DNA of 64,000 nt from Leptogorgia sarmentosa (taxonomy: Eukaryota): the NCBI GenBank assembly GCA_964658305.1, contig OZ210885.1:23622001-23686000 (forward strand), read 5' to 3'. The translations under genes were made by a program, and so were the position numbers. This document shows positions 37,052-61,288 of the stretch, piece after piece; positions within the stretch are counted from its first letter, which is position 1; every line of letters begins with the position of its first letter. The notes beneath the pieces are model-generated. The model saw only the letters and a list, made by a program, of their open reading frames with translations, had not been told where the DNA came from and did not search any database.

Positions 37052-37379
37052 GTATTGTCAAAATACAAACAAAAGTCGACAGAATTTCACAGAAGTGGCA
37101 AATAAAATATGATTTATGAGTTATGCGTAAAATATTAAATGTGATTTTATCAGAATATGCGCCCGCAGTACAATTGTGATGCCATGCGCGTGCACAATTT
37201 TACTTTCTTTTATGTGCGTTAATATTTTTTTGTTTGTGCATTGCATAACAATTAATGTTAGCCAATTTATTTTTCGTAGATTTTTTTTCTTTTTCGGTAG
37301 AAAAGTGACGGCCTTATTTATTTCACACAATGTTCTATTATTTGTTCTTCTTTATTAATTTTGTTATATATTAATTTTT

Positions 37380-38650
37380 TAGAGGTTAATTTATGAGCGT
37401 TTTGAGCATTTTGTTTCAAGACAACGTAACATTGAGATGACGTAATTCTCACTGAGCCCACCCGCAAATTTAAGGGAACCAACGTGAAGGTGTGCAAAGC
37501 AGTTCTTGCGGGCTAAATATTACAAAATGGCAGCTGATATAGGCGCGAGCTAAAGAGTGGTGATGTGTTTGATCGTGGATTTTGTTTCGCATGAATATCC
37601 AGATAAAAAGAAAATATAATGTTCGCAGCGACAAGTGACTTCAGTGAAATAGAGGTTAATTTATGAGCGTTTACGCCGTTTAGAACACTATTTATACTAA
37701 GGAAATTTATACGCAAAAATATCATGACGCAAATTGCAGACATTGGCATTGCTTTTAAAGATATTAATTAAAGAGGTTCGCGTTCGCTATGCAATTTAGA
37801 TCATCAAAGCAAAAATATCATGATGCAATTTATACAATTGAACACAGCGAATATTTAAGGTTATGAAAGAGTTTAATGTCTTGACACAATTGCGCGTATA
37901 TTTTCCCTACGATACTTTAGCGCGATACTTTAGTGTGTCGGTACTGTCGCACTCACACACTGTACATGTTTGGACTGCCCGCGGTGTCATTGTGATCACG
38001 GAATATCTACTATATTTTGACGCTTCGCCATACGGAATGGTTGAAACATTCAATCCCAGGAAAGTAGATTTCGTAGCTTGTAATAAAACGGGTTTGTGCG
38101 TTTATTAAGCGCGAGACAAAACAAACGAAATCATATATAGTTTCAAGTATTCTGTTTTGAACCTACGCGCAATGTGCATACCGATCATACATACACTTTA
38201 GCGTCTACGCAAATGCGCATGAATGGACGGAATATATTGTATATAAATATATATATATAGGTATTGAAAAGGGTAAATTTGGTTTTTAGAGAGCCACATT
38301 TTTCACAAACAATCCAAAGCGCTGTGTCTATTTTAAAGACGCAATAACATAAAATGCGATATCATATGTCGTCAAGTTTCAAATCCTTATGCAATTTGAT
38401 ATATGATCGCGGGAATTCCGGAATGCGAGATAGTCATGAAAGCTTATATCAAGTATTGAATACGTCTCCGCACAACCTCACGTCTTGAAAGGAATTAGTA
38501 TTTGCGCTATTCGCCTATTCCCTAGCAATAAACCATTTTATACATGCAAGTTCGCGTATTAGGGACAGATAAGATGCGTGTATCGAAAAGCTGAAAACAA
38601 ATAAGACTTGATCATCAAGCTACATAGGCGCAGATACATGTACACTTTGT
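37380..38650. mobile_element. Unclassified ~1.27-kb insertion splitting the right TIR of the IS3EU-like element
   Basis: TIR homology stops at ~37380 and resumes at ~38651; tagaggttaatttatgagcgttt occurs at 37380 and 37650. Confidence 0.55.
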
Positions 38651-39887
38651 GTACCTATTTTTATTAGTGTGTTCAATTCTTTTTTTTTGCGTATATTTTT
38701 ATATATGTATGTGACCCTTGTGAGCTACCGTAAGATTTAACCAAAAGATTCAACAAAATTTCAACCGAACCACACACCACTCACCCCCCCCCCCCCGCAC
38801 AATTATCATTGTCAGCAGGGTCATGATGTTGATAGGGACAAAAATTAGACGACAGGATGAAAGGAACCAAAAAGAGGTAATAAATAACCTGATATATATG
38901 TAAGAAAGACTGGCCTGGACTGCATTATCATGGAGATTGTAGAGTAATTCTAAGAACAGTTTAATAGTCTTAGTTTAATTATTTAGGTAAACATTGAACA
39001 AACAGGTTATTAGAACTGGGCAAATTGTTAATACATACAAAAGTTGCTTACCTGAATAGTCATAACTATTTGTTGTAGAAAGTAAAATTAAAAGGCATGT
39101 AAAATAACCTTGATTATGCTTTTGTTTCAGGATCACAACCACACATTTAGGAAGATAATGAAGCGTTATCAACCATCTAAAAAGCTCGGCTGCCCAAGCA
39201 AAGTAGTTATGTCTAGGGTCTTGAAGTTTCCTGACTACATGGTAAATGTGTAAAGTGCAATTATCTTATATTTGGTACATTTATTTTTTACCTTAGTACA
39301 CAAGAAAATATATTGCCAAATATAAGGCTGGACTCTTGTCATGCCATTTTTTGAAAATGTGATATTAGATTTTAACATACAGTACTGAGCACTGCATGAA
39401 GAGTGGCTATTGTGGAATAGGCAGACAAAACTTCACATCATCATTTCAATGTTTTGTTTCAATGACATTCATTAAATAAAGCAACAGTAGCCCGTGTAGG
39501 TGCAAAGTTGACCACCAATCCACCATGTACCACCATGTAACTTCTTATGAATATGGCTTATCAGTTATCACCAATACGTCTATTAATTTAAATACTATAT
39601 ATTGGTCTTAAGTTTGAGTTAACATGATTTTTGAATTGACCCCCAATAGGTAATAGGTGATAAAAATTCTCGCTCACTAAATATACACACATACCTATTT
39701 AACTGAATAACTTCTTGCTTAAATCTCTGTTTGCATTTGTTTTTATTTGGTGTTTTAATTTATATTTTATACACATATGGTGCCACAAAATTGTCTTTAT
39801 ATAAAGTTTACAGCACATGAAATACCGTTGACTCGTATGTATTGCAGTTTCAGAAATGTACGTTTCGTGTCTGTTATAGTGCTCACC

Positions 39888-40827: not shown

Positions 40828-40871
40828 TATGGAAGCCCAGCAGGCTCACTTCAACTTTCATAAAGTACTTG

Positions 40872-41046
40872 GTATTTTCACATATAACTTAGCATTTTCA
40901 TATACCAACTTAGTATTTTCACATATCAACTTAGCATTTTCATATACCAACTTAGTATTTTCACATATCAACTTAGCATTTTCATATACCAACTTAGTAT
41001 TTTCACATATCAACTTAGCATTTTCATATACCAACTTAGTATTTTG
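40872..41046. repeat. 21-bp subterminal repeats alternating as a 42-bp dimer
   Basis: agtattttcacatatcaactt and agcattttcatataccaactt alternate about 8 times. Confidence 0.93.
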
Positions 41047-41214
41047 ACAGCCAAATATTGTTAACGTTTTATCTATACTTAGAAAAAAGTACCTTTTTCA
41101 AAATATTTTTGGTGTTTCAAAAAGTTTTTTTGGCAAATTGAAAAAATTTTTCGCGATTGAAAAATTTTCATGGTGAGTATAGACCATAACGCAACGCAGT
41201 CTTATGATGAAATA

Positions 41215-42803
41215 CACTGCGAACCACGATATTAGTTTGATATGAGATATACGCTGTTCATATTCTAAATAAGCAGCATTATTCATTGAAAAAGCATAAG
41301 TTTTAGTGGAAGGTGTGGAAACACAGTTCCGATGTTTACATTGTATAAAAGTCACGTGGGTAAAAAAAATGTAGGCGTTTCCCTATAAAAGAGGTGGCCC
41401 ACGATATTAGTTACAAAAATCTATGATCACGATGGGACGCAGTAAAGACCTCGCAGAACAAGAAAAAAAGTTTATCATAAAGGAAATAGCCAAAGGTAAA
41501 ACACCCAAAGCTATTGCTGAAAAAATAGGTCGTCACGTGATCACAGTTGAAAGATTTCTGAAAAATCCTTGTAAGAGGAAACCTCGACGTGATCGCGGAG
41601 TTGTAAAATCAGTCTCGAAGCGAGATATGAACCGTTTAAGGAGAACGCTCCGTAAAATGCCTGGGGCAACGAGTGCAAGAATTTTTGAAGACGCTGGTCT
41701 ACCAGATTTCGCGAAAACCACCCGCAATCGACTCCTCCGAAAGGTAGCATCAGTGAAAAGTCCGGCTAAAAGGCCACCTCTTACGTCCAGACATAAACGT
41801 TTACGTATGGATTGGTCAAAGAAATACATGAAAACGGACATGAAACATGTACTATTCACTGACGAGTCGAGAGCTACCTTAGATGGTCCTGATGGTTGGG
41901 CGAAAGGCTGGGTGTTCCACGGTGATGATTGTGCGACCCGAATGAGGCGTCAACAGGGAGGTGGTGGTGTTATGTTTTGGGCTGGCATCATTGGCGATGA
42001 CGTTATCGGCCCCTTTCGGGTGCCTGAAGGAGTGAAGCTTACTTCTACAACGTATTGCCAGTTTCTCAAGGATGCACTCGATCCATGGCTAGATGATCTA
42101 CCTTTGTCAGTGCTAAAGAAGATCATCTTCATGCACGACAATGCTCCGTCTCATGCAGCAAAGGCCACAACAGCATTTTTACAGTCTCTTGGATTTGTCA
42201 ACGACACTCTCATGGTTTGGCCTCCAAACTCGCCAGATTTAAATCCAATTGAGAACATGTGGTCTATAGTCAAGCGCATTGTTTATGCAGATGGCAGGCA
42301 ATATTCTTCAAAAGATGACCTGTGGAAGGCAATAAAACGATCTACTGCTTCCATCCCCAAGTCTACCATCAAGAACCTCACAGATTCGGTAAACGACAGA
42401 CTTTTCGAAGTTATCAAACGCCATGGGGCCCATGTGAATAAATAACTGAGTGATGAGATTCAAACTATAGCGTGTTCCATTATGTAAATGAGTAAATTAT
42501 TTGAAATTGTTTGTGTCGACAATTTAACAATAAAAATAAATCAACGAAAGATAATTCATTTCTTTCTGATGCACTTAACTTATTTTTTTCTAAATGAAAC
42601 TAATAGCGTGGTTCAGTGGGAAAAGCACAAAATGAAACGAAGGTACACTTCTTCATCAATATCAATTTGTGAAACACAAATTAAAATTTTCCCAGCATTA
42701 CTTGAATAACGTAAGCCAAATTATAATGTTTGAGCCAGAATTGTGCCAATGTGATCATTTTTTTCGTAAAGTTGTATTTGAACTAATATCGTGGTTCGCA
42801 GTG
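41215..42803 (+). mobile_element. Tc1-like DD37E (TRT-type) transposon, full length
   Basis: 23-bp perfect TIR cactgcgaaccacgatattagtt; TA TSD (41213-41214 / 42804-42805); intact transposase. Confidence 0.95.
41423..42445 (+). CDS. DD37E Tc1-family transposase, uninterrupted 340 aa (337 from the second ATG at 41432)
   Basis: FTDESRATLDGPDGW, RRQQGGGGVMFWAGI, HDNAPSH...SPDLNPIEN; 37 residues lie between the second D and the E. Confidence 0.95.
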   Translation: MITMGRSKDLAEQEKKFIIKEIAKGKTPKAIAEKIGRHVITVERFLKNPCKRKPRRDRGVVKSVSKRDMNRLRRTLRKMPGATSARIFEDAGLPDFAKTTRNRLLRKVASVKSPAKRPPLTSRHKRLRMDWSKKYMKTDMKHVLFTDESRATLDGPDGWAKGWVFHGDDCATRMRRQQGGGGVMFWAGIIGDDVIGPFRVPEGVKLTSTTYCQFLKDALDPWLDDLPLSVLKKIIFMHDNAPSHAAKATTAFLQSLGFVNDTLMVWPPNSPDLNPIENMWSIVKRIVYADGRQYSSKDDLWKAIKRSTASIPKSTIKNLTDSVNDRLFEVIKRHGAHVNK

Positions 42804-45332
42804 TATAAACATTTCAAGATTTCAAGATGGAGAGATTGGAAGATTTACCATTCGATGTATCAGAAGGTATGCGGAACTCTTTCTGCATGGATTTATTTGA
42901 TTCTTATATTGATAATGCAATGATATATTTTGAAATTTTGCAGAAATGTACGAGCGTATTAACGACTTAGTGGCAAAAATGAAGACAAATGTAATGATTT
43001 TAAAATACTTGGACAAAGAATATGGCTGCACATGGAGGTAACCATTACAACATTTGCAAAAACATAGAAATGATCAGAAATACAGCTAGATAAGAAAAAG
43101 TAGAGGAAAAGTAGCCCTACCCGAATATAATATTTAATTTTGACACTCCCAACCAGTGAATTCCCTGGCACTTAGAGAGCTTACATTACTCCCGTAGCCC
43201 CGGCGACGATATATACAAACGCACATTTAAGTGTATGATATCCTCATGATACCATAAACGTTTTCATTCTTGTCGACCTTGACCCAGATCACAAGCTTAT
43301 AATTCCTAACCCTTTTGTGCCATTAATCTAAAGAATATATTGAGTAAAAATTGAATAAATTCTATTCCGTATTTCTAATATTTGAAATATCAACATGTGT
43401 CTTAATTATATAGTTTGTCGACATTGAAAAGGAGGTTGAAAGTGATGAACATCCGCAGGCATGACGAATCAGCCAAATGATGTGATAAAGGCTGTAGCTG
43501 TAAGTGATCATTATTTGGAAGTAAAGATTTCGTGTGAATATAATGGCAGCACTTCCATGTATACTAGGTTGTCTTCCATATAAAAATAAATTCTTTTAGT
43601 AATTTGGCATTATGATCGTAATCTTTCCTATTAAAATCTATATATTTACATAATTTTTTAATGTAGAGTGAATTGAATGGACCTGCGAAAAAGATAGGAT
43701 ATCGAACCATGCATCTACGCTTACGTCAGAAACATAATTTAAAAGTGAAGAGGTACTTCTTAAAAGCAGCGGATTCTATAATAAAGTAGTTAGTATATAA
43801 TGTATACGCTATAATTCATCCAGGAACTATTTTCATGACTTTATAAAATACATCCTGTATGTTTTTGAATTAAGGGACGATGTATACCAGACGATGCAGT
43901 TTTTGGATCCGGGTGGAGTTCAAATGAGACAGGAAAGGATCCGGGATAGGCGGGACTATGTATCTGTGGTAAAGACATAACACTAATAATTGAACTATAA
44001 TTTCTTTTCATATCCTCAGTTGAAACATCTCTCATATATATTTGCAGGGTAGTAATTGGATATGGCACATTGATGGCCATGACAAATTAAAACCGTATGG
44101 TTTTTGCATTCATGGTGCTATAGATGGATTTTCCAGAAAAATCCTCTGGTTATGTATTGACCAGACTAATAATAATCCGTGGTACATCGCAAAATATTAC
44201 ATGGACTATGTGAGAATCAACCATGGTTAGTAGTCTTGTATATTTTCCGCATGACATAGCTACTATATAATAGCTATAGAGTATAGTCCAATAAAATTGC
44301 ATATCTGCAAATTCTGCATGGCCCCAAGACGAGGTGTCGCTTTGATTTTGAAGCAGCATCATTATAGTATAGCAAACATACAACATGTCAATATTTTATA
44401 TAGTTGTTCCTTCAATGACTAGATCAGATGCAGGTACAGAAAATGGAATACTAGTAAGCTGTCAAACATACTTGAGGCGAAATTTCTCTGATAATTTATC
44501 TGGGGAGAAAAGTCATGTGTATGGCACGTCAATGCTAAATCAGGTAGTTGCATGCGTTGTCATATATATACGTATATAAACATTTAAAGGACTGCTGCAT
44601 CACTGGAAGCAGCTGCGAATTTGTATTCGAAAACTATATTAGCTTATGCCTTGTCAAATCCTGCGAATGGATGTCCTGAATACATACAGTATTTTAATTA
44701 CGTTCACCAAATTATGTATTCATCAATGATACGCAGTGCATGGATGGGTAAGATGAGTATGAATTTCCACTCCTTTTTGATAGATTGAATTTTTACCAAT
44801 TCCAGAGAATTGAATGCTTTTGGAGGCAGCAAAGAGAATATCACACTGGACATTGGGAAAATGAATTCAGGGTTTGTATTATGATAACGAACTGTATATA
44901 ATGCAGTTAACGTAATCTATTTTGAAAAGATATATTATCAAAAATAGTCGATATATTTCAATATTTTATACTTAAGGATTTGGAACAAGATGCGCTGTTT
45001 TCTCAAGATTGTGTACTCCATAAGTAAGAGATCATATAGTCTTTCATTACTACAATACACATGCACTTTCACATTTTTCTTATCAACGTCATATGGCCTG
45101 GAACCTCGTCCTCACGAATCGTGAGCCAAAAGAGCAAGACTTTACACTATGCACTAATTAGGGCACATACTTTGGTTCCGAAGTACTGGGGCCGGTTGTT
45201 CGTGGCCCGTTTAGCTTAAACGGCGGATAAGTTGAGAATTTTAAGCAAGTTTATATATTCATTGAACAATTAAGGTAAAAATTTTAAATCTAAAAAGAAC
45301 ACCTATGCATACAAGTATATATTTTACACCCA

Positions 45333-48300
45333 GTGGCTGTCTCACTAAGAACCATGCACCCATTTCAGGTTGAAAATTAGATTTCCTTCAAATTTTCACC
45401 ATGAATTACTGCAACCCTAAAAGGTTTTAAATAAATATCAAAAGTTCCAAATTTGACACCCGATACAACGGCTAACTGCATGTCATATTGTTTATCATAT
45501 CTCGAGAAGTTTTGCGTCAAATTCAAAACTTTTTTGCCAGAATTGAGTTAGACTCCTTCCCTTCTCGAATATATGAAGAATTTATCATACGACTTATTTT
45601 AACAAAAATATTTGGTTTCCAACTGAGTCTATTTTTACTACACAAGCAATATTCCGGAAAGTTACGAAAATTAAAACGAAAATTTCTCAAAAGTGGCACC
45701 TAGTCAGAATCTAAATGTTTATTTTTGTTAAACTAGAACACTTGAAGTAATGTTATTTGCAATAAAACTTGTCGGCAAAGAAAAATTGAACATGTATAAT
45801 ATTTCATAACGTGGGCTATAATTAGCGTTATTGTTTACCTTCTGTGAAAGCTCATCGTTAAGAGGAAATTTGCATTTGTGATTAAATTACGTTCCAAACC
45901 CCAGGTTTGAAGTATGTTTCAATTTGGAATGTTTTTTTGTAGCAAAGTTACATTTCCAAAGAAGATAAACAACCGTACAAAAATAACAAAATACCAAGAC
46001 AAATTGTGCTTTTATTCCGTCGCGTTGATTTAATTTCACGGGGTTTCAAATAAATGTATGAAGCCTAGTAAATCTACTACGACTGATTATACTAGGAGGA
46101 AAACATCGGAGTTGTTTGGACGAATGAACTTCTAAATTTGAAGAATGAAAAGTTTATATGTCTATCTATCAGTCAGGATCAGAACCGTTAATTGAACAAA
46201 AGCTACACCCTTTCAAATATTAATTAATAATGTCAAATTAAATGAGATCCCAGAGATGAGGTCCATAATATTCGTTATAATTACATAACATTATGTCTCA
46301 CTTAAGAATGCGTACTCAGGTGAAAATTAGTAGACACTTCTCGTTGCTTGTTTAGAATTCAGAGTAAGAAGAAATTCTTATTCTAGTAGTACAGTGCTGT
46401 TAGGCACTAAGGTGGCGAAACGTCGACGCTGACGAAACTTTTCCCAGTCTCTCACTTTATAAAGGTCCCTATTTGAATTAGATAACATTATAAAATCATG
46501 TGAAAATCGCTGTTTCTTACATCTAGGAATATAATTAACAAAAAGCCACAATGTTCCCAACACGTCCAGACGAGAATTAGAGTCCATCGTCCGTCACTGA
46601 TTCTGGGAACAAGCACATTGTTCAATCATGTTCGAGATTATGTTGATCAGATCTTGTTTCTTGTCCCTTGATTTAAACTGCATATCAAAATGTTTGCAAA
46701 TTTCTTTTAGCATCGGTACTTTGAAAACGGATAGCTGTTCTTTACTGTACATGTCACACAAGTCATATGCATCGTAATATATGGGGTGGGTGACGTTGAT
46801 TGCAGAAAATATGTCGTTTACTAACGTTTCTCTTGCTTCTTCCTCCTCACAATTGCTATAATCTTCGTTTTCGTCTAATTTGTCTTCGTCAAGTTGCCCT
46901 TTCCTTCGTTGCTTCGCTAATCTTGAAAAAAAGCCCTTTATCTGCTGCTTATTCAGCCATTCTTCCTTTGGAAATAATCTCTCTCCACCTTCATTCCTGG
47001 CGCCCCGTATGTCCAATGAAACTTGTGCTGGGTCTGCTTTGTGGCCCGTTCGTTCTCCAAAGTCGAATTTTGCAGTCAGGTACTTTTTCACTTTATCAGA
47101 AAACCTTACAGATCCCGTTTTTGGTTGGCTTAAGGCCCAACCCATCTCAAGAGGGCTTATTGTACTTACTATAATACCACTCTGTTTATAAGATGCTTGG
47201 ACATTCTTTGATGTGAGTGTCTTGAAGTTATTCGCCCACTCTCTTCTAAGAACATCGTAAATACTTTCATTATTGACGAACCGACTATGCTGTCCTACAT
47301 CAATGTGTAGCTCTAAGTCCTCGAAGGACTTGAAAACGCAGTTGCAGCCAGGCTCAAGACATTCAAATAAACCCTCAGATTCTGCACCATCAACTGTACT
47401 TTCCTTTTTCAATGTTGTCTGTCTGACTGAATTAATGTCTGGGAATTGTTCCTTCACTTCCATCTGTGTCTTGCCCTGATGATGAACGTATATTGATTTA
47501 TCATGTACTTTCTTTCCCTCCCCTATTTCAAACGCTTTCCATACTCTGATACCATCTTTCTCGTACTTGAAATTGTGATAGCTGCTAAAGTTTGTTATCT
47601 TCTTTACTTTAAGCTCCTCTGCGGATTCATTAATTTTATTTACCGATGCCGAGGTTCCCTTTACAGTGTGATAACTGAGTGCAGTGTACATGTCTTTGGC
47701 GTTAAGAATGTCATGCCCTTCGTTGCAATATCTTCGAATAGATGACTTCAGCGGACTGATAATTCGATCGCAGATGTCTTTACCTTGTTGAAGCTCCGAG
47801 AAATGGTAACTATCAACTGAAATCCCGACCCGTTCCCCAATATCTTTTACTGCTGATATAAGAAGGTTATTGTGATAGCATCCAGCTTCATCTGACCTGA
47901 GGTAAGCTTTATTTACAAGTGGGAATTTACATTTTACGGCAGAGAGAAGATTTTCTATGATAGAAGCTACAGCGAACCAATCTTGAGTACAGGAATCAAA
48001 TAAATGAGCATATGTGGTCACCACAACTGTGTCTGTCGACGTGCCTTTGGAAACAACACTGCTCACATGCCAACTAAGTCCACGCTTTCCGTACCAATCA
48101 GACTGTTTCTCTCGGAATTTGGTCTGCTGGAATTTCATAGCCCAGTCCATAACTATAAGAACACTGGATTCATCAAGATTGTCCAAAACTTTCTGTTTTG
48201 CTCTCTCCTGATTAATTGATCGAAGAATATGTGATTTCCATTTCTGAATATTTTGAAAGGATTCCTCAAAATCGTAAACGAGCTCTTCTTTCACATCTTT

Positions 48301-51300
48301 TGTGCAGGAAAGGTGTTGGTTTTCTTGAAGTTTGTCACGAATTTCCTCCAATGTGGACTTTATGTTGTCGCAATTTTCACATACCATGGCGTGTTCATGC
48401 GCACAATTTAACTGGAATTCGCTTTCTGCAGGATCACTTAATGCAAACGCCCTACAATGATCTGCACATGGACTCTCATTTTCTTGGCAGTGTACTTTAT
48501 AATCTGTTTTGAGGTATTGCTTTGCTTTTTCCAATCTTTTGATTGTTTCCTGCGACCATTTTATATCAACACCTGAATGTTCCAGCCGTTCACAAATCTT
48601 TTCCATTGTACTGAATGCAGTCGAACCATCTGCCGCTGTGTTGTCTAGACCCTGTAGAGACTTGCGCTGTGATGCTTCTCTCACCTCAAGAATGCGAAAT
48701 AAGGTTGCCCTGCTAAGTGGCTCGAAACCGTCTTCAGTACAAAATTCTAAATACTGTGCAACCATCGTTGATCTTGTTACAGTACGCACAACATTCGGCA
48801 TTTCTATTGTCTCCCCATTTCGTAGTTTTAAATTCCTGGTTCCAAAAGCGACATCTTGATGAAAGTATGGACGATTCGCAAAGTCGATAAAGTGATCCAC
48901 TTTACCCATATTAAGACTGATTCGATGGTGCTTGGTTTTCTTCATCTCACGACCAGGTCCACAGGTTCTGGCATGGGCGCGAGCCCTGTCTATTTGCCAT
49001 CCACTAAGCTTGCCATATGGTTCGTGCAATTTCTGTAGTGCCTTTTTAGGTAGCTCGTATGCATATATGCTCAATATCTGTGTTCTCAAATTTCTGGTGG
49101 GTGCTTGGACAAAAGCATTTACTAAAGGTAAAAGGTGATCACATGTAGTTTCACGTGGTAAACTTTGAAATAACTTGTCTCCATCGTTAGGTGCGATGAT
49201 GCTGCAGATAATTTTACAGGCGTCAATTGCTTTGGCTATGCACTCATTCTTTTGCATAGAGTTAGCCGATTCCAGATCGTTTATTTGAAAGGATAGCTCT
49301 GATGGTTTGTCCATCCCAGCAAGTTCTGACAAATTATCCATTGCTTGATTGAACTTCGTCACCGTTGAAGCATCCGGGTGGTTATTGTCCTGCTCCACGT
49401 CACTGTCTGTAAAATATGCACTAGCGCATCCTGCTGTCCAAAGGGAAATATTTTCAGGCGTTTCTGAAGAGGAAGACGGACTACTAACTACACTCAGGTC
49501 TTCCATCTGATCTGCCAAAGGAACTACTGTTCGTCTAAAGACATAGTTATTTCATTGATTGAAATTTCAATTCCGAAATGCACGTTTTATATATTTAATT
49601 TTATATTTATAAAAAACATTTTCTTACGCTATATATACCTAGAAGATTCCACATTAACTCTTTCGTGGCTTTGAAGTTGTTCAGGATTCATCCAAACACT
49701 TTCTTTCTCCATTCTCTGTCGGTGTATCTGTCGACATTGTCTGCATATTGCTAAATACAAGTAAATACATTTATAGGGAAATAGAATCAAATACAGTTTC
49801 GGCCGCGCTGTAAAACATAACCCATGAAGAAGTGCGTGGAAGGAAATAGTTTCATACGTTAGTTAAAATCCAGTTTCTCATGGTATGTTTAGACAATACT
49901 TACGAGATCCTAATTGAACAAGTTTCCCATAAAGGGTAAATACTGCCTCTGATAATGAAACGTTGAAGACATCTCGCCCTGCGCACTTGCGAACAGGGCC
50001 TGAGTGAATCGGATACTGGCAAGATCTCAAAGGTCTCCAAAATCGCCCCAAATTATGACGATGAGACGGACAAATGGTCATTTTCTTATACTGATTCTCG
50101 CTAAGATGGAACATTCCGGCACGTAGTGCAATCAATTGACTCTCTCCCAAGTTCGACTTTGAAAGATGACAGGTTGCAAGCTGACTTTTTATGTCTTCTT
50201 GACAATCGAATAGGTTGCATATCTCCCGCAAACCACGATTTTCACCACAACTAATGCCACCAATGCCAACGAACGAACATTTTTTCTCCATAGTGCGAGA
50301 TGTTTCGCCAAGTAGTAGTACTAGTACTACGATAAACGTCAGTAACTTCGCAGTGTATCGCTAACGACAACGCAATATATAACAACAGATAGTCATTTAT
50401 TCTGCTTGTTTGTTTACTAAACTTGCCTTGTCTATGGAAAAATGTTTTAAAATTGCCAGTTAAGTTAATATTTGAAAGGGTGCGACACCTTACTAAAATT
50501 GTTAATTTCATTATATCATTGTGTTACAATACAGTGCAACAGCCAGCCATGCGTTTAAGCTTGAAAATTAGGGGTTAATTGTAGAATACAAGAATCTGTT
50601 GATTTATGATGTTCTCCTACGAGTATCATTGTGTATTAGTAGCACTGCAAAGATAATGTGAAGCCGTGAAGCCATGCAGCTTGCGTATTTACCGTGATTA
50701 AACGACAATTTGTCGAACACAAACATTTTGTATGATTATTTATCCTCTTAAGAAGTCAAACTCTGTCGAAAAATAAGAGTCCTATTATTAAAACATCCTT
50801 CCATGATGGAATTTGACTTCGAGCCTGAGGTTTAGAACATAATTTATTAACATTGATTAAATTTACTTGCAACGACGAGGACTCTGTTTTCACAGAAGGT
50901 AAACAATAACGCTAAATAACGCTAATTATAGCCCATGTTATGAAATATTATACATGTTCAATTTTTCTTTGCCGACAAGTTTTATTGCAAATAACATTAC
51001 TTCAAGTGTTCTAGTTTAACAAAAATAAACATTTAGATTCTGACTAAGTGCCACTTTTGAGAAATTTTCGTTTTAATTTTCGTAACTTTTCGGAATATTG
51101 CTTGCGTAGTAAAAATAGACTCAGTTGGAAACCAAATATTTTTGTTAAAATAAGTCGTATGATAAATTCTTTATATATTCAAGAAGGGAAGGAGTCTAAC
51201 TCAATTCTGGCAAAAAAGTTTTGAATTTGACGCAAAACTTCTCGAGATACGATAAACAATATGACATGCAGTTAGCCGTTGTATCGGGTGTCAAATTTTA

Positions 51301-51474
51301 GTCTCGTCAGCGACCGAAGTATAAAGGGTGGGAAAACTAAGAAAAAAATAAACTTTTGGAACTTTTGATATTTATTTAAAACCTTTTAGGGTTGCAGTAA
51401 TTCATGGTGAAAATTTGAAGGAAATCTAATTTTCAACCTAAAATGGGGTGCATGGTTCTTAGTGAGACAGCCAC
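45333..51474 (-). mobile_element. Sola3-like DNA transposon with ~520-bp TIRs
   Basis: Near-identical long TIRs 45333-~45849 vs ~50888-51474 (gtggctgtctcactaagaacc...), with ~57 extra nt in the right copy. TTAA on the right flank only. Transposase motifs as in the CDS feature below. Confidence 0.78.
46594..50291 (-). CDS. Sola3-like DDD transposase, 3 exons (50291-49904, 49750-49639, 49534-46594), 1146 aa, open throughout
   Basis: GT-AG introns keep the frame (GS-P-ICRQC; SS-R-RTVV). Motifs VMDWAMKF, REKQSDWYGKRGLSWH, RSDEAGCYH, GKDICDR; C2H2 finger CLEPGC...HIDVGQH. Confidence 0.82.
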
Positions 51475-52468
51475 TTAATAATTTTGTCTAGTTTATCACA
51501 AGACGAACGGGAGTGTAATTTAAATTTAACTTATCCGCCGTTTAGGCTGAACGGGGTACGAACAACTGGGCCCTGATATGGAATATGTGTGATCTGCATG
51601 CAGGACTGGCTTATATTTGCATGTGGCTAATATTTGGCACTTTCTTAAAATATTGAAAAACTCAATCGAACATTTTAAATACTATCATTGATTTTTCTAC
51701 TGCTATATAGATTATGCCTTCGCTATGTCTACATGCCACTTATATGAAATGAATTGGTGTGGTTCATTGATAAGCATAATAATCACCGCATACGAAAGCA
51801 GAAGGATCGCAAAACTCCTCAGGGAATACCCGAAGATCTTTACAATTTTCCAGATCATTTTGGTAGCGTTTTTTCCTTCAAACGTCACTTATTCGTATGT
51901 ATATTAAATTGCGCATAAACATTTAAGTAAACGTGATAGCTGGTTTTTTTTCAGGTTTTCGCAATGCAGGTTTTCAACCCAATGACAACGACATATCTTC
52001 ACTGGTAGAAGAGAATGGTTTTAATAAGCCAATCCCTCATTTTATGAATAACGAACGTTTCGTTGGACTGGCCAACGAGTTTTTGGATGAGCCAGTTACA
52101 ATAACCAATGCGAAAGAAGTTTACACATGCCTTGTTCAGTTCATGGAAACAAATTTGTAGGTGAAATATGAACAGTATTTACATTAAATATCAACTATTT
52201 GCATAATACAGTTATTATAAGACACATATTAAACTAAAACAAATTTTAATATAAGAAACATTAACGTTTGATAGTCACTAAACTAAACTTTTTGAAAGAC
52301 AATTCCAACCTATATACGTATAAGCCACTTATAGCTTGAAGGAGCTCTTCGACAATCTGTCTTCATCATTTTCTTCTATATATTTATAAAAGAGAAAATA
52401 GATTACAGGCCCACATTATTTAGTTGGAAAAAGCGACATATATATGTATGAACGAAAATATTCCTATA

Positions 52469-53053
52469 CAGGGTGTCTCAAAAAAAAGGTAATCGAACTT
52501 TGGTATGCCATTGTGCGTTAATTACTGGGTGTATGAACGTGATTTTTGCATGGTCATAAAGATCAAGGTCTTAGCAGTTGAATGACATATCTGTTGTACG
52601 ATATCGAAGAAAATCAGGCAAATGCGAGCGTGTTGAAAATCTCGGTGAAAAACGCATTCTTTCACCTCTGTGCCTAATTAAAGCAGTGCATAACAAAAGA
52701 AAAATGCAATTCATCGCGAATGTGTCATGGTAACAAAGATTTTATCAGGATTATTAATAATTATGCATAATTAGGTCGATTGTTGAAGGGATGGTCGTCA
52801 TCTTCGAGTCCCAGAGGGAGTTAATTTTGAATAAGTTTAGCTGCAATTCTCAGAGGTGAAAGAATGCGTTTTTCACTGAGATTTTTCAACACGCTCGCAT
52901 TTGCCTGATTTTCTTCCATATCGTACAAGAAATATGTCATTCAACTGCTAAGACCTTGATCTTTATGACCATGCAAAAATCACGTTCGTACACCCAGTTA
53001 TTAACGCACAATGGCATGCCAAAGTTGGATTACCTTTTTTTTGAGACACCCTG
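52469..53053. mobile_element. Tc1/mariner-type foldback MITE
   Basis: TA-cagggtgtctcaaaaaaa...tttttgagacaccctg-TA; about 200-bp near-perfect arms. Confidence 0.92.
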
Positions 53054-55279
53054 TATTAATAAGTGCATACATTTTGCAATATATTTTAGTTGTATTTATA
53101 GAAAGTTAAATATTTTTTTGTGTATGAACGCTGGTATACATACTATTCTGAACTATCGGAGGGAGGTTTAAAGTTTGGCAAACATATCCGCATTTGTGCG
53201 TCTTTTTGAATGTTTCAATCGCCTCACTGCCAACATTCCCAATTCCATAATACCTAAATGTATAGGTTATATACAGTTTCAACTATTTATTATAACAAAC
53301 ACAAATCTAATGCAGTTTCTTGGTACCCTTTTTCTTTCGTTGCCAATTCGATGTCTGTGAGCTTTAAGTTGACGCCTTTAGAAAGGAGAATTTAAACTAA
53401 TATTTCTCTCAAATATAAGTTTCAAAGACGGGTACAATACCCTACACTCTTTCAAGGAAGTTGATTAAATAAACTTGTAAATCAGCGATCATGAAGTCCC
53501 CGTGGCTGAAGATCAATGACCAATGAACTAAAGCCATGCATGTAACCGCAGCACTCCCTTTGCATTGATTTCGTTCTTTGCCTTCGTTTCCGATGTACTT
53601 TGTGAAGTGGCCTGGTAGAATGGGTTCCATCATATAGACATCGCCACTTGTTTCCTCAATGGCCAAAAATGCACTTATAACCCTACAGCAATAAAGATGA
53701 CAAAAAGTCAGACGCGTGCATACTTTCAGCACGCAGAAGAATTGAATGGAAGAAAACTCTGCACATACTCCGGAGCATCAGTCAGTTGTGTCTTGTACGT
53801 TTGACTAAATTGCTCCACCAAAGAACGGCAAACCATTTGTGTCTGAATTTCCTGAAACAAAATCAACATGCTTTATCTGCTCTTAGACATTTCATTCCAA
53901 TTCTGATTATAAACATGCTTAAATTTACTTTTTTTGCAATGGATTTAATCGATCTGTTTTTTTCTTCAGCTGCATTTACGACTGTGTCATTAAACCGCTT
54001 CAATAAAACATCTGTTCCTTTTGAGAATGTTCGCAACAAGTCGTGAGATAAACCCTCCAAAACAGTTGCTTTACTTGCTATTCTCATGCCACCTTGACCA
54101 AAATCTTCTTCACTGACTTCCATTCGCATGTAACCAAGTATTTTCCAGGATTTTGATTCAACAAAGAAAGTCGAAATTTGATAAATTTCGGCTTATATAT
54201 GAAAATAATACAGAAACTGAGATGGTAAACATAAATTATTATCAAAATATATATGAAAAGTAGAAAATATTTCTTCCAATCTTGCTACCTGAATTAATTA
54301 GCTCATCAACTTTTTTTGGGATGATTGACATACCACACCGTAGAACATCTTCCTTTGACAAAGTAGCATGTGCTTGGAAAGAAAAATTATAACAGATATT
54401 TCACAATTTGAACAAAGCTGTTATGTGAGAACAATTTTCCTGCCACTTCAGATAGAGTTTACCAGTGCCCTACACACTTTACAGTGATTACAACAGAAGA
54501 TTGATATAGCAGTGCGTGGTGATACTGGACTTTTTTCATGACCATTTAGTAAAATGCTCAACTTAATTAATGTTGATTTCATTTGTAGGACATAAAGTGA
54601 TTTTAGATTTAGTAAACTAAGTACCGGGTAATTTTGTTGGTAAATCCACAACTTCTTGTAAATCTTCATCACTACTTTTGCTCGGTTGACTGCTTTCGCT
54701 GAGGTTTGAGAGTGTGCTCTTTTGAATGGATGATGTAGAGTAAATATCTTTCTGAAATTTAAATTAAAATGGCTTGTTGTTGTGGATACAGCCTGATATT
54801 AATATCGAAAATTTGTAATTTACCTCAGTATAAAAAAATGAAAGCTAGTTCTGTTGAATGTGTAAGTAGGGTCTTTTGCAATAGCTTTTCCATCTAATAG
54901 AAAAAGTTCCAGATTTCTTTCCTTCACCTCCTCATCATAATTGTCTTTTGGTATATTTAAAAACTCCTCAGCACAAGCTTTTAACAGATTTTCAATAGTA
55001 GTTGTACTATTTGAGGAACAGTGGCTGCGATGAATTCTGTTCTTTTTCTTTTATTGAATTCTTTCATTTCAGAAAAAGCTACAAAAACATTGGCTAAAAC
55101 TTGCTGCATTCGTATGAATGGACGTCAGGAGTGGGCATTTACAGGCATATATCAACTGCCCAAATACTTTTTGTGCTAGGGGTACCCTTATTCTGGAATG
55201 AAATTGAAGTGCTGAATATTGTAATGATTTTTTGGAAGAGAATAATTCTGGTCAGTGCTTCCCTCACCAAGTTTTGAGG

Positions 55280-55746
55280 CACCGGAAGCAATCCAGGGCA
55301 GGGGCGGGGGGAGCAACATCTTTATAAAGAGCTTTTTTTTTTACATTGGCAAATAAGCAGAACTGCTTATTTGACATAAGATAATGCAATAAAAATTAAA
55401 CTTTTGTGCATTTAGCATTTCGTATATTAATATCGCATATATATGACGTATTATTATACCTTCACGCTTTGGTATCGTAATTCTAAACATATTTTAATAT
55501 GTATGGCCTTACATTTTATCAATAATTCATTACTGCTTAGTCTGCTTTTATATCGCGCTCACCGAGATCGCGCTTTAAGATCGTTTGTCAATTATCGGCC
55601 GACAAGTGACGACGACCAACGATTAATTAGGGTGATAAAATAATTCAAACTTTATAGCCAAAGGGCAAAACTGCCCCCGCTGTCCCCGACAACGAAAGGC
55701 AGGAGGGGCAGCTACCCCCGCTGCCCCCGTGGTTCCGGCGCCTCTG
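55280..55746. mobile_element. hAT-type MITE in an intron of the kinase gene
   Basis: 8-bp TSD ttttgagg (55272-55279 / 55747-55754); right TIR ggttccggcgcctctg; left TIR lacks its first ~6 nt. Confidence 0.75.
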
Positions 55747-57066
55747 TTTTGAGGTGCCAAAATACCTGTCAATATATGCTGTTCTAGGTAATAAAGTTAG
55801 TAGTACTAAACAATCATTCATTGTACACACTTTTTGGAGTATCTACTGTTCTCTTTTTCTCATCAGTACCTTTTACCAAATTGCCCTTTGCTATAGGGAT
55901 CTGTCGCTTATAGGGTTTTAACTTTATTGAACCAATAACAATAAATCACAAAATCACTCTCTCTCTCTCTCTCTTAAATCGCTCTCGTTCACTCTAAATT
56001 TAGCTCGCACGTGTCCCGCAACGTCAGTCAACTTTTCCTAATATGGCAATGTCAATCCACTGTATCTCTCAGTCTCCGACAACCTAAAATGAAATAAAAA
56101 GAATAATATAGCTTTCTCGCTATTATAATAAACCTCAATATGTTGTCAAACAGCGGCACCAACTTACATGACTTATTCCAGACAAAGGGCATTTGCTCAA
56201 AAAGACGAATATGTTTGTATTATTCAGGTAACTGATGAGTATAACTTTTGCTGCTTGTAGATATACTTATATCCAAATATTAAACCATATAAATTACTGT
56301 CTATTCAATACCTGCTGACATGGACACATGCCCAAGGCCTACGTGTTCATTAGGCAAATGTCCACATGCGTAACAATCATTAGTTCCAGGCACGTGCACA
56401 TACTTTTTACATGAGCATTCACCTTCGCCACCACTACATCCAACTTTAACCACCTTGAAAGAAGCAAAAAAAATAATATAATAAAAGTGAAATTGAATAA
56501 ATCTCAAAATGTTTCTTAATTAATGCACACAAGTTTACATGAACTGCTGCAGGATGACTGCATTCAGTGCAAACATTGCTCCCAGTTTTGACCGCATATT
56601 GAATGCAGGTACATTTCCCACACTTTCCTCGCAACACCTTGTTGTGATCTGAAAGATGATGATAAATTAATAATTTGAATGTTGAAATGTGAATAAAAAA
56701 TTGTGAAATACAATAATTATCGTTTATTATTATTCAGTTTATTATTCACTCAATTTTGATTGGTTAATTTACGTGCAAATAACTGCCTGCAAATATCACT
56801 TCAACTGCCAAAATTGGCGCAAACAGTTTACTGATCATGCTCATTTAGTTCAAAACTCGCTCAGCTGCAAATAATGGTTTGTTTGGATTACTTGCTTGTT
56901 TTGCAGAACATTTTGCGAATGAGTTCTCCTCTCTTTAACACGTTTATAATTCAAAGGAACGAAATTGGAGCTAAACGACTTATATTGGCGTCCCAAAGTA
57001 AACTTTCTACCGTGGTCGGTAAATTTTACGCCGAAGCGAGAGACAAAAGATCAGTAAATAATAAAC

Positions 57067-57628
57067 TGAATAATAAAACAATTATCGAACTCGGCTGTCG
57101 CAGAATATCGTGATTTATCAGTGGCGAGCAGATAAATTATTTAATCGTAAATAATTGATCTGCTCGCCACTGATAAATCACGATATTTTGCTCAGCCTCG
57201 TCCAATAATTTTATTTATTATTTATTTCAAATAATTTCAAGAGCCTAATTATTCATAAGCTCTAATTATTTCAAGAGTTTTGATTGGCTAAGAGCAGTGC
57301 GTTAAATTTTCATATGCGACATTATGACGTAATTATGTCGTATATTGACATTATAACGTCTACTAATTTATGCTGCTTATGCCAAAAGCTGAAAAATACA
57401 AGTGGCTTTCTTAAAGGTGGTTCTTGTGTACAATGCGTATACCCTAAGTCTGATAAAGATACAAATAAATAATAAAACAATTATTGAATTTGGTTCTCGT
57501 AGGATATGCTGAATTATTAAGGCCTCGGTTTGTGTTATTTGCCTCACCCTTCGGCTTCGACAAATAACACAAACCTCGGCCTTAATAATTCCTCATATCC
57601 TACTTGACCTCATTCAATAATTGTTTAA
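57067..57628. repeat. Two related long hairpins (57067-57210 and 57470-57628), possibly Crypton-type non-autonomous element ends
   Basis: aatatcgtgatttatcagtggcgagcagat...atctgctcgccactgataaatcacgatatt and aattattaaggcctcggtttgtgttatttg...caaataacacaaacctcggccttaataatt; both are preceded by aataaaacaattat. Confidence 0.6.
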
Positions 57629-59481
57629 TAATTTGAATAACAAAATATCAAATATCACATAATTACCATATGCTTCTGATGCCGCCATATTGTCTGTGCT
57701 TCCACCAATGAACTAGCTTCCACTTTTTCAGCACAAAATCAGTGCGCGTTGCATCATGGTCTATACTTGCCGAAAAAATTTTCAACTTGCAAGAAAAATT
57801 TTGAACTTGCGAAACTTTAACTTCTCATGAAATTTTTTAAAAACATCAAAAATATTTTGACAAACTGTGCTCTCTTTTTCAACTTTCGAAAATCGTTGAG
57901 CTTTTCAATTACTTCGAATAACATATGAGTTGATATATGTCAATACTAAGTTGATTTATGAAAATATTGAGTTGATATATCAAATTACTAAGTTGATTTA
58001 TGAAAATACTAGCAGCTGGGAAATTTGTTGCGCATGCGTCAAATGTGACTTGCGTGGTCTCCACGAACTAACATCGCGCGCAGGATCTTTAAAATTTGTA
58101 AACAAAAACATGAGCGGGATTTTTTTCTCTTGTGCCTCGTTTCTTTGGCTGTTTTTATCGCTGTTTTTGCAGTTGCAAATAGGAAGGACCTTTATTGTGC
58201 CGTATGCGGCAAATGCTGCAAAAAGAATTAAATTCTGCAAGGAATAGCTTCCGCAAAGCGCTGTTTTCGAGAGCTGTTTCGGTGTATCCTACGACGAAAC
58301 AGGGATATTATGCTCTACCTGTCGAACTTTAAAGGCGAAATTCAACTTGAAGCGCAATTTTCTCCTCAAAACGATTAGGTATTTATTTTTCCTACCTATC
58401 CAGAGAATTCAAAAATAGGAACAAGATTTTGGAGACTTTGGTTAGATTTTTCACAATTTTGCCGAGTTTCGACCCAATTTAATTCCTGATTGAGACGAGA
58501 AAATATAGCGAGATATAGTTTAAAATATTTTTTGTTCTAAAAGGAGTAACGGTTTGGTTTCTTTACACAAGTATTAATAAATTAGTACCAGAAACTAGAG
58601 CAAAAAATGAACCAACTACATCCAATTGATTCGCTATCGTTCGTCTTGATATGGCAGACATCAAAATTCAACCGATATGCAATGTTTGACATAGATTCCA
58701 CGATTTTGGTCGGAAGGGCAATTTTCATATCAACAAAATGCTGTTTATCAAAAACAACAAACAATGTGAATATCAAATTTAGTAACAAAACTTTGGAGAT
58801 TTCGTCTAGATTTTGAGCTTTCGAAGCTTGCCCGCCATACGTCTGTCTTGGGTCTATAACATCAACAGATGCGAAGCAATGTAAACTTTTGCTCACCCTG
58901 AACAAATGTGAAATTATCTGGCAAAAACAGAACCAGGGGTGACACATGAAGTTGTAAGGAACATATTATACACTCTTTCCAGTTTCAAACACCCACAAGT
59001 GGCAGTGAATCTTTACTCAAAGCACGCGCGTGCCAAAATTGTGTTCAAATTATCGGTCAACATCCTTGTGTGTATATGTGCTGATCACTCGCACAAGTTT
59101 GTTTCAAATCACTTGAAAAATCGTCTTCTGTCAGACCATAGATAACAGTTCACGTACAAGTTAGTTTTGATCCATGTAACCAAGCGAGTTGGCGCACAAT
59201 TTACAAATAAACACAACACTTCGCAAGGCATAATAACACGTTCAAACCCTAGGTGCCTTCGTCGCCAATATTTTAGTAAAATGTACCATTAAAAAGGACA
59301 TATTCAACATCTGAAGCAAACTTGGTGTGCTAAGAACAACTTCCTACTCTTTAAATAATTCGATTATGGCTCAGAGAAGCTCAGATCTCAAACAAACATG
59401 CGCTTTGCATTTTCATTCGAAATTTACAAATTCGAACAAAAAACAGGTTGTGCCCGCAATTTCTCTGCACAGCGACAACAA

Positions 59482-60830
59482 ATTACCAATCTGCATCTAT
59501 CTAAGTCTGTTGGACCATTTAGCATTCCTACTAAACTGGTAAAAATCTTGAAATGTCTCTTATCTGGTCCACTTGCTTATCTTTTTAATTGCTCATTCTC
59601 AATAGGTATTGTTCCTGATCAATTTAAACTAGCTAGAGTTATTGCAATTTATAAGAAAGGTTGTAAGTCAGCTGTATCAAATTATTGACCCATTTCATTA
59701 CTTTCAGTGTTTAATAAAATTTTAGAAAAAATTGATGTATAAGAGATTAATGACATTCTTGGAAAAGAATAAAATATTTTTTCAAGGCCAATTTGGTTTT
59801 CGTTCAAATCACTCCAGTACACATGCTATTCTACTCATTTCTGATAAAATCCAAAAAGCAATAGAAAGTAAAATATATTCATGTGGTATTTTCCTTGATT
59901 TTACTAAAGCTTTCGATACTGTAAATCATATAATCTTGTTAAAAAAACTTGAAAATAGTGGGATAAGGGGAATAGCACTGGAGTGGTTTTCATCTTATCT
60001 TTCAAATAGAAAACAATATGTATATCAATTGGCAGTGTAATCTCTGAACAAAAACCTATAACCTGTGGGGTTCCACAAGGTTCGGTTCTAGGCCCCTTAC
60101 TATTTTTGCTATATATTAATGATTTTAATAATTCTGCACCAAAAGTTAAGTTTCATTTATTTGCAGATGATTCAAATCTATTTTGTTCAGTTAAGAGTCT
60201 ACAAAACCTAGAAGTAATAATAAATGAGCAGTTAAATTCAGTGGGCAAGTGGTTATGTGCCAATAAACTTTCCATAAATATTGAAAAGTCACATTTTGTT
60301 CTCTTTCATCCACCACAAAAGAAAGTCAATTACTTGATAAACCTTATAATCCACAATAATGAAATAAAAGCAAAGATAAGTGTCAAATATCTTGGAATAA
60401 TCATGGATTGTAATCTAAGTTGGAAGGAACACATATATTTGAATTAAGCAAAAAAATATCCAGAGGTATATTATTTAAAATTCGAGACTTCGTTTCTATC
60501 GATATACTAACTCAAGTTTACTATTCAGTAATCCACCCTTTCCTTATGTATGCACTCCTGGTATGGGGACATACATATAAAAGTAATTTGCACCCATTAG
60601 TGATCTTGCAAAAGCAGGCTATTAGGTTAATGACTTTTTCTAATTTCCATGAGCACACCTCTTCGCTATTTAAGGCTCTAAAACTTCTCAAATTTACCGA
60701 TCTTGTGTATGTCAATACAGCATCATTTATGCTTCAGTATAGTTTGGGCAAACTTCCGGCCAATTTTGATGACTTTTTTACCTTGATTAATTAAAGACAA
60801 CCATGATTATGCTACTCGTTTAGCGGCTAC
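59482..60830 (+). mobile_element. Host LINE segment 4: reverse transcriptase and C-terminus, degenerate
   Basis: KSVGPFSIP, NY*PISLL, QFGFR, DFTKAFDTV, GVPQGSVLGP, FADD, VKYLG, YALLVWG, HDYATR; several frameshifts. Confidence 0.93.
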
Positions 60831-61200
60831 TGTAACGGATTGTTCAGACTCGGGGGTTTTTACTGGGCCGATTTAACGGAGCGACCAGAAGAGCAGACGA
60901 GCACACGAATAATATTTATATTTTAGACACTTGATCGTAATAATCAGCACGTAAAAACTACAAATGATATACAATAACTAACATTAACCTCTAAATATAC
61001 GATAACAAGCACTAATATGAATCCTCCTACCTCTTTCCCCGTATCTAGCGTCTCTTTAACCTTAATAACGATGCCCGAGATTAATAACACTAAACCGTTC
61101 GATTTTATCTCGTCCCTTTCGCGCCAAAGTAGTCAAACACGCGGTCCATTTAATATATTCGCATACATTAAAATAACTTAGCATGCATGATTACGTTACA
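60831..61200 (-). repeat. 3' LTR (370 bp) of a BEL/Pao retrotransposon
   Basis: TGTAAC...GTTACA termini; purine-rich tract (minus-strand aggagagcca) abuts at 61201-61210; inserted at the LINE 3' end. Confidence 0.88.
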
Positions 61201-61288
61201 TGGCTCTCCTAAATTGTTCGAGAGAGCAGTTTAAAATCAACTAATTAACAACTATACATGCTAACGACTCGTAGTCGATGACTTATCT

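What the first reader, a model, noticed from the sequence alone, without database searches (positions are those of the whole stretch)
40828..58010. IS3EU-like transposon carrying its own alpha-kinase gene
Seen: between two matching subterminal/inverted regions lie an intron-rich DDE transposase (+ strand, ends 52160) and, tail-to-tail only ~170 bp away, a spliced gene (- strand, 57688-52329). That gene shows the hallmark alpha-kinase motifs: G.GGMR, VLLK, E.Q.Q helix, E..L.G.F.KY..N, HWS, DLQG..LTD, G.GN.G and the zinc-binding H.C...C. Its start sits just inside the right TIR, the same slot the HECT gene occupies in element 27069-38732. Established: alpha-kinases are atypical Ser/Thr kinases (eEF2K, ALPK1, TRPM6/7, MHCK). 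Inference: the kinase is an integral accessory gene of the transposon, not a host gene. It could phosphorylate the transposase or host silencing/translation factors. I do not know of a description of this pairing. This copy looks degenerate (stops in the transposase, two junctions needing 1-nt repair).
Basis: partly seen in the sequence, partly recalled or inferred. Interest (0 to 1): 0.88.

Follow-up and report, generated by a model that had tools for sequence, protein, structure and literature searches.

The report
Decayed transposon carrying an alpha-kinase gene
This is a broken IS3EU-type jumping gene, in what is likely an animal genome, that carries an alpha-kinase gene facing its transposase; the pairing is already noted in print for fungi, and the kinase likely modified host or transposase proteins to help the element keep moving.

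Summary
Mostly confirmed, but the pairing is not new. An 11-exon DDE transposase (+, 42827-52160; Pfam rva_4) and a spliced alpha-kinase gene (-, 57688-52329; Pfam PF02816) converge 168 bp apart between ~280-bp inverted arms. Each gene starts just inside its arm. The left end is TATGG at 40828, inside a LINE. The right tip and the TSD are gone: a separate 1.5-kb repeat sits there, and about 37 LINE codons are missing. Public contigs show a second version: a different left flank (1 of 4 runs), and a deletion that joins the transposase directly to the kinase (3 of 4 runs). This copy is dead. Kojima 2025 (PMC12730594) states that TET-bearing fungal IS3EU families carry an opposed alpha-kinase. 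This scan noted the pairing earlier on other DNA (13 notes, at least 3 genomes, one invertebrate). What this adds: a likely animal lineage whose kinase profile matches TRPM7 best among solved structures, and a Cys/His motif shared with a gene related to the window's HECT-type cargo gene. The kinase's target is untested; host silencing factors are my first guess.

The parts
40828..41214 (+). Left end and arm of the element: TATGG terminus, 21-bp tandem array (40865-41070) and a motif shared with the right arm at 41177; inserted in a LINE ORF
   Evidence: X1 contig begins exactly at 40828 and an X5 contig has another flank there
41215..42803 (+). Nested Tc1/mariner element with an intact 344-aa ORF (41411-42445) and TA flanks, lying between the left arm and the transposase start codon
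   Evidence: Pfam DDE_3 E 2.2e-16; ends; Tc1-free joint in 4 of 4 runs, 28 letters on the short side
42827..52160 (+). IS3EU-type DDE transposase pseudogene, 11 exons: 42827-42866, 42944-43037, 43414-43499, 43667-43752, 43875-43968, 44048-44225, 44404-44543, 44806-44871, 44977-45023, 51711-51862, 51955-52160; frame break in exon 3, stop at 51745
   Evidence: 41% identical over 207 aa (E 1.5e-49) to the transposase of the TSD-bounded element 27069-38732
45188..51573 (.). Nested insertion in transposase intron 9: a small high-copy TIR element, itself interrupted by a long-TIR element (45333-51474) with a 985-aa ORF (46594-49551, -)
   Evidence: the 985-aa ORF has no Pfam family above cut-off
52329..57688 (-). 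Alpha-kinase pseudogene. N-terminal exons 57688-57667, 56648-56539, 56453-56312 (two Cys/His motifs); damaged middle exons near 56083 and 55192-54824; open exons 54751-54625, 54372-54289, 54191-53929, 53851-53769, 53682-53475, 53375-53327, 53253-53144, 52375-52329
52469..53053 (.). High-copy MITE in the last kinase intron (TA flanks)
55276..55750 (.). Small repeated insertion in a kinase intron (approximate ends)
56750..57630 (.). Nested high-copy palindromic repeats in kinase intron 1 (approximate ends)
57689..58012 (-). Right arm: shared motif at 57766 (78 bp before the kinase ATG) and 21-bp array (57926-58011); outer tip missing
58013..59491 (.). Separate ~1.5-kb repeat with short imperfect inverted ends, in place of the element's right tip; the LINE resumes at ~59491 with ~37 codons missing

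Best explanation
The stretch is a decayed, right-truncated IS3EU-type cut-and-paste transposon holding a DDE transposase gene and, facing it, an alpha-kinase gene that is likely a built-in second gene of the element, and that likely phosphorylated host silencing or chromatin proteins (or the transposase) when the element was active. Shown: both genes, their convergent layout, mirror arms with a shared motif 57 bp (Tc1 removed) and 78 bp upstream of the two start codons, the exact left end, and a second version in which the two genes are physically linked. Inferred: the arms act as two inward-facing promoters, so both genes are switched on together; the transposase cut at the TAYGG..CCRTA ends and made a 6-bp TSD, as the neighbour 27069-38732 shows; the kinase fills the same second-gene slot that a HECT-like gene fills in that neighbour. 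My odds for the kinase's role: host silencing or chromatin target about 45%, control of the transposase about 30%, passive passenger about 25%. This copy can no longer move or make either protein. Nested insertions, frame breaks, a stop and loss of the right tip came after insertion into the LINE.
For: Pfam and PDB identity of both genes. Arms and start-codon positions. The left terminus matches the start of rust-fungal IS3EU-2_PGr in 12 of 13 letters (compared by eye) and the TAYGG rule. An X1 contig starts at 40828 at depth 188, while the LINE-flank contig stops at 40857 at depth 105, and an X5 contig has 99 unlike letters before 40828. Joint 52147 to 53702 in 3 of 4 runs, with 224 and 255 letters on the short side in X5 and X6 and only 30 in X1. 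A version with five more bases in transposase exon 3, which keeps the frame, occurs in 3 of 4 runs. Twenty close kinase relatives lie on 16 contigs of distinct length, and 3 of the 20 break off inside an exon. With inserts removed the element is ~7.3 kb. Same opposed layout in fungal IS3EU (PMC12730594 section 4.1). TRPM6/7 cleaved kinases phosphorylate histones (PMC13143021 section 31): a precedent for a chromatin target, not a test.
Against: No right terminus or TSD in this copy. No single contig ties the second left flank to the kinase, so that flank could belong to a non-autonomous derivative; X4 and X5 show other sequences after the 21-bp array. The second version could be an allele. Only 2 studies hold the stretch, and X1 may be the source sample. 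The context of the 20 relatives is unknown. The variant test gave no sign of purifying selection on the transposase: 8 of 29 listed changes fall in exons, p 0.13, and 5 of the 8 change the residue; 27 further variant rows were not shown. There is no evidence here on substrate or activity.
Confidence: 0.75

Rival explanations
1. The kinase is a host gene recently captured (transduplicated) by this one family and carried as a passenger with no role in transposition.
For: GingerRoot elements are reported to capture gene fragments with introns (PMC6839031 passage). The kinase is intron-rich and its profile hits TRPM7 best. No selection signal was obtained.
Against: The reported GingerRoot captures are fragments of 84-1,654 bp, whereas this is a whole gene starting at the arm motif that mirrors the transposase start. 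The same pairing occurs in fungi. Exon ends are kept in relatives down to 33% identity.
Confidence: 0.17
2. The kinase is an ordinary host gene, and the transposase and arms are separate insertions that happen to flank it.
For: The right terminus and TSD are missing, and the region is a dense nest of insertions.
Against: The whole unit sits inside one interrupted LINE ORF. The arms are each other's inverted copies. A second version links the two genes. Relatives are many and partly broken.
Confidence: 0.05
3. The kinase is a built-in gene but acts on the element's own transposase (an activation or auto-inhibition switch) rather than on host proteins.
For: Mirror arms suggest co-expression. The neighbour's second gene is HECT-like (weak NEDD4 hits, E 0.05), and a ligase or a kinase could each control transposase level.
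Against: Transposases 35-41% alike go with two unrelated enzymes in the slot, which fits a swappable anti-host tool at least as well. No direct test.
Confidence: 0.25

Closest known systems
TET+ IS3EU families of rust fungi and Tuber (Kojima 2025, PMC12730594; passages, section 4.1, supplement part 1 of 20 and one term search seen)
   Same: Transposase and alpha-kinase in opposite orientation; TAYGG left end, 12 of 13 letters like IS3EU-2_PGr.
   Different: No TET/JBP gene between the two genes (168-bp gap); likely animal host; right end and TSD lost; both genes broken.
IS3EU/GingerRoot superfamily (Kojima and Bao 2023, PMC10045372; Cerbin 2019, PMC6839031; passages seen)
   Same: IS3/integrase-like DDE transposase, TA terminus, long inverted arms; present in corals and other aquatic animals. 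PMC8232023 (passages) says described IS3EU encode two proteins.
   Different: Neither paper's main text holds the word kinase. The 6-bp TSD cannot be shown for this copy.
TRPM7 kinase domain (PDB 1ia9), and coral kinase-only genes annotated 'TRPM6-like' (Morini 2026, PMC13143021; passages, section 31 and supplement term searches seen)
   Same: Best PDB match of the kinase profile (E 1.5e-13), with the HW, DLQG, Gly-rich and His/Cys motifs aligned. Table S1 lists 6 Acropora millepora and 1 Orbicella kinase-only genes named TRPM6like.
   Different: No channel domain; an N-terminal Cys/His pair instead; inside a transposon. With the single exon as query an Entamoeba-type entry (4kuj; organism recalled) scores as well as TRPM7 (E 0.0021 against 0.0028). 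Whether the coral genes are transposon cargo was not tested.

Membership tests
IS3EU/GingerRoot | IS3/integrase-like DDE transposase | tested here: met
   rva_4 E 6.4e-11 above cut-off; D, D and E motifs in the spliced model and aligned to the neighbour's transposase
IS3EU/GingerRoot | TA..TA termini (TAYGG..CCRTA) | tested here: inconclusive
   Left end TATGG at 40828 confirmed by contig branching; right tip absent, replaced by another repeat
IS3EU/GingerRoot | 6-bp target-site duplication | tested here: inconclusive
   None found, but the right flank is deleted: ~37 LINE codons missing
IS3EU/GingerRoot | Inverted repeats longer than 30 bp at the ends | tested here: met
   Subterminal arms of 282 nt at 69.5%; the outermost ~37 bp survive on the left only
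IS3EU/GingerRoot | Tree placement among Repbase IS3EU transposases | not testable with these tools
   No Repbase proteins or genome on hand
TET+ IS3EU (Kojima 2025) | TET/JBP gene between transposase and kinase | tested here: not met
   Only 168 bp between the two stops; not filed under this subgroup
Alpha-kinase (PF02816) | Profile match above Pfam cut-off | tested here: met
   44.8 bits against a cut-off of 21.3; 12 of 12 members of alignment A1 match at E up to 0.01
Alpha-kinase (PF02816) | C-lobe catalytic and zinc motifs (HW, DLQG, Gly-rich loop, His/Cys/Cys) | tested here: met
   Aligned to the TRPM7 chain; the G of DLQG sits on the broken splice junction. Roles of the residues are recalled.
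Alpha-kinase (PF02816) | N-lobe Gly-rich motif, invariant Lys and helix-C Glu | tested here: inconclusive
   Motifs seen, and the Lys invariant in 10 of 10 aligned rows, but the exon alone hits no kinase in Pfam or PDB
Alpha-kinase (PF02816) | Ser/Thr kinase activity | not testable with these tools
   Needs an assay on a naturally intact relative
ALPK2/3-TRPM6/7 clade | Three kinase-domain introns at shared positions and phases (PMC13143021 section 31) | not testable with these tools
   Positions are not given in the text or supplement passages seen; no host gene DNA on hand. That the positions match those here is recalled only.
ALPK2/3-TRPM6/7 clade | Closest kinase by sequence | tested here: inconclusive
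   The profile favours TRPM7 (1.5e-13) over 4kuj (6e-9), ALPK1 (3e-4), eEF2K (1e-3) and MHCK (0.15); the single exon does not; no ALPK2/3 chain appeared among the PDB hits

The most novel reading that the evidence does not exclude
Animal IS3EU kinases form a mobile alpha-kinase lineage that accounts for the multi-copy kinase-only 'TRPM6-like' genes of corals and shares ancestry, including intron positions, with vertebrate ALPK2/3 and the TRPM6/7 channel kinase, so that the chanzyme kinase descends from a domesticated transposon gene.
Probability: 0.1. Interest if true: 0.85.

Novelty: new member of a known kind. Interest (0 to 1): 0.33.

Why it matters
IS3EU elements are poorly studied and appear to keep a second enzyme gene (alpha-kinase or HECT-like ligase) facing the transposase. 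A likely animal kinase-bearing family extends a pairing that, among the papers searched, is printed only for fungi. It makes two things testable: whether coral 'TRPM6-like' kinase-only genes are transposon cargo, and where the vertebrate ALPK2/3-TRPM6/7 kinase came from. This copy is dead and truncated, so it is a pointer rather than a model system.

Tried and rejected
No genome is held for the window, so loci could not be counted. The JGI metagenome scan with alignment A1 gave 4 loci of 37 pattern matches. All four are fungal host loci matched on the opposite strand of one conserved gene, with weak E-values (4e-4 to 6e-4) and no transposase hit; rejected as chance. Viral contigs: 0 of 222 matches for the kinase; 3 of 12 for the transposase exon, but no loci returned. 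The genome-contig scan was not possible with A1. The search for longer homologues with A1 found none among 7994 candidates, so no full-length kinase was obtained and no tree was built. P0011 (repetitive, 2245 aa) was dropped from the 11 hits as spurious. The AlphaFold model of the 62-aa N-lobe piece was uninformative (pTM 0.36) and was not used for a fold search. The ESM Atlas gave no answer. No RNA holder was listed. No similarity between the kinase's middle exon and the N-terminal part of the HECT-like gene or the 10513-11382 ORF. Two papers that may bear on priority were not held: Kojima 2019 review and a fungal TET/transposon paper whose id I recalled. Repbase entries could not be seen and may already describe animal IS3EU kinases.

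Full report
Verdict. The two genes and their layout are real. The element is a dead, right-truncated IS3EU-type transposon. The transposase/alpha-kinase pairing is already stated in print for fungi, so the novelty lies in the likely animal host and in the kinase's affinities.

The transposase. Eleven exons from 42827 to 52160, with GT donors and AG acceptors at all ten introns, give a 395-aa model with one frame break in exon 3 and one stop at 51745. The exon at 44048 hits Pfam rva_4 at E 6.4e-11. The model is 41% identical over 207 aa (E 1.5e-49) to the transposase of the neighbouring element 27069-38732. That neighbour has TACGG..CCGTA ends and a perfect 6-bp TSD, the only such pair among the window's TAYGG/CCRTA sites. 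A Tc1 element (41215-42803) separates the left arm from the start codon, and a 6.4-kb nested insertion fills intron 9.

The kinase. On the minus strand, 53442-53777 hits Pfam Alpha_kinase at E 1.9e-11. All 12 members of alignment A1 (the window exon, P0005 and 10 of the 11 hits; P0011 dropped) match that family. The exons from 54751 to 52329 are open apart from one 1-nt break at the donor at 53475. Relatives support the exon ends: all 15 stored relatives that reach the DxQ motif continue with Gly and then diverge, and 8 of 10 N-lobe relatives diverge right after the residue where my exon 54191-53929 ends. C-lobe motifs align to the TRPM7 kinase. The N-lobe motifs are visible, but that exon alone finds no kinase. 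The first three exons splice in frame and carry two Cys/His motifs. The two stop codons are 168 bp apart.

The ends. The arms are inverted copies (282 nt, 69.5%; score 105 against at most 42 in 1000 shuffles outside the tandem repeats). A shared motif lies 57 bp (Tc1 removed) and 78 bp before the two start codons, which I read as paired inward promoters (inference). The left end TATGG at 40828 interrupts a LINE ORF. No right tip exists in the window. A separate 1.5-kb repeat (58013-59491, depth 31-44 in X4-X6 against about 2-3 for the bin holding the left flank) stands there, and the LINE resumes about 37 codons further on, judged against another LINE in the window. The TSD was therefore deleted, not disproved.

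Other copies. Seven of 15 listed runs, from 2 studies, hold the kinase stretch; X1 may be the source sample. I laid 4 of them. In X1 the LINE-flank contig (depth 105) stops at 40857 and a contig of depth 188 starts at 40828; in X5 one contig has 99 unlike letters before 40828 (58 loose-end rows not shown). A Tc1-free joint appears in 4 of 4 runs, with only 28 letters on the short side, under the tool's 31-letter rule. A version of exon 3 with five more bases and an open frame appears in 3 of 4. In 3 of 4 runs one contig joins transposase position 52147 to kinase position 53702, well bridged in X5 and X6. So a second, separately decayed version has both genes linked tail to tail. Limits: no contig links the second flank to the kinase, the second version could be an allele, and depth suggests only about two to three copies. 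The variant test found no selection signal on the transposase (8 of 29 listed changes in exons, p 0.13; 27 rows not shown). In protein collections, 20 close kinase relatives lie on 16 contigs of distinct length, and three (P0002, P0004, P0022) break off inside an exon, as transposon cargo would. Their neighbourhoods and species are unknown. The JGI and viral scans added nothing.

A second-gene slot. The neighbour 27069-38732 has the same convergent layout with a HECT-like gene (no Pfam hit; weak NEDD4 hits, E 0.05; motif reading recalled). An ORF at 10513-11352(-) is homologous to that gene's N-terminal part (E 6e-13) and carries the same Cys/His motif as the kinase's N-terminus. The motif occurs 3 times in the window and in none of 30 shuffles, but I defined the pattern after seeing the three cases. 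This hints that cargo genes share N-terminal parts and swap the enzyme. A direct comparison of the kinase's middle exon with those proteins was negative.

How it likely works. Shown: the anatomy above. From the literature on the family: cut-and-paste transposition with 6-bp TSDs (PMC10045372 passages). Inferred: co-expression from the two arms, and a kinase acting on host silencing or chromatin proteins (about 45%), on the transposase (about 30%) or on nothing relevant (about 25%). The chromatin guess leans on the histone-kinase role reported for cleaved TRPM6/7 kinases (PMC13143021 section 31) and on fungal IS3EU also carrying TET/JBP genes proposed to counter silencing (PMC12730594 abstract passage). 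None of this was tested.

What is known. [quoted passage not shown] The left end here matches the start of IS3EU-2_PGr in 12 of 13 letters. I found no paper that describes the pairing in animals in searches (listings only, apart from the papers named) or in passages of PMC10045372, PMC6839031, PMC11934779, PMC10853768 and PMC8232023. The Kojima 2019 review and Repbase were not available and may hold it; the supplements of those five papers were not opened, and only part 1 of 20 plus a term search of the PMC12730594 supplement was seen. This scan's earlier notes report the pairing 13 times in at least 3 other genomes, including one invertebrate; they are unchecked and not counted as support. 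I read the Kojima passage before seeing them.

The bold reading. The kinase profile's best solved match is TRPM7 (E 1.5e-13; next 6e-9; ALPK1 3e-4), though the single exon does not separate the top two. Corals have multi-copy kinase-only genes misnamed 'TRPM6-like' (PMC13143021 passage and Table S1 rows). TRPM6/7 and ALPK2/3 share three kinase-domain introns, and among human alpha-kinases only eEF2K was said to occur in invertebrates (PMC2827801 passage). From recall only, the intron positions here resemble those of that clade; I could not test it. If the vertebrate kinases nest among transposon kinases, the channel kinase would be a domesticated transposon gene. Capture from the host is at least as likely. 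I give the domestication reading 0.1. The host itself is not identified; an animal, probably a marine invertebrate, is my inference from the introns and repeat content.

Noticed in passing
window 27069-38732: Complete IS3EU-type element with TACGG..CCGTA ends, TSD AGATTT, rva_4 transposase (-, 37057-35723) and a convergent HECT-like gene (+, from ~31450); holds further nested inserts.
   Followed up: partly
window 10513-11563: ORF (-) homologous to the N-terminal part of the HECT-like cargo gene (E 6e-13) with the same Cys/His motif as the kinase N-terminus, next to an 18-bp-unit repeat array (11394-11563); possibly the arm of a third IS3EU-type remnant.
   Followed up: partly
window 41215-42803: Intact Tc1/mariner element (344-aa ORF), near-identical copies in all four runs laid and about six times the flank depth in X1; probably young.
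   Followed up: partly
window 45333-51474: Long-TIR (~480 bp, 98-99%) element with an unbroken 985-aa ORF lacking any Pfam family above cut-off; Sola-like by recall, untested; nested in a small high-copy TIR element (45188-51573).
   Followed up: partly
window 58013-59491: 1.5-kb repeat with short imperfect inverted ends and no long ORF; a shorter deleted form exists in 3 of 4 runs (joint 58058-59387); its insertion coincides with loss of the element's right tip and ~110 bp of LINE.
   Followed up: partly
window 26364-39872: A 55-bp inverted pair encloses the 27069-38732 element, i.e. another element into which it inserted.
   Followed up: no
window 60835-64000: LTR-retrotransposon-like ORFs (-) with integrase and RT/RNase H features interrupting the 3' part of the LINE; BEL/Pao-like by recall.
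   Followed up: no
window 1287-2375, 5532-8028, 14202-16494: Tandem-repeat ORFs (60-nt and 57-nt units), an OTU-like ORF and a hAT-like transposase ORF, all named from recalled motifs; the 14572-16494 ORF had no Pfam hit.
   Followed up: no
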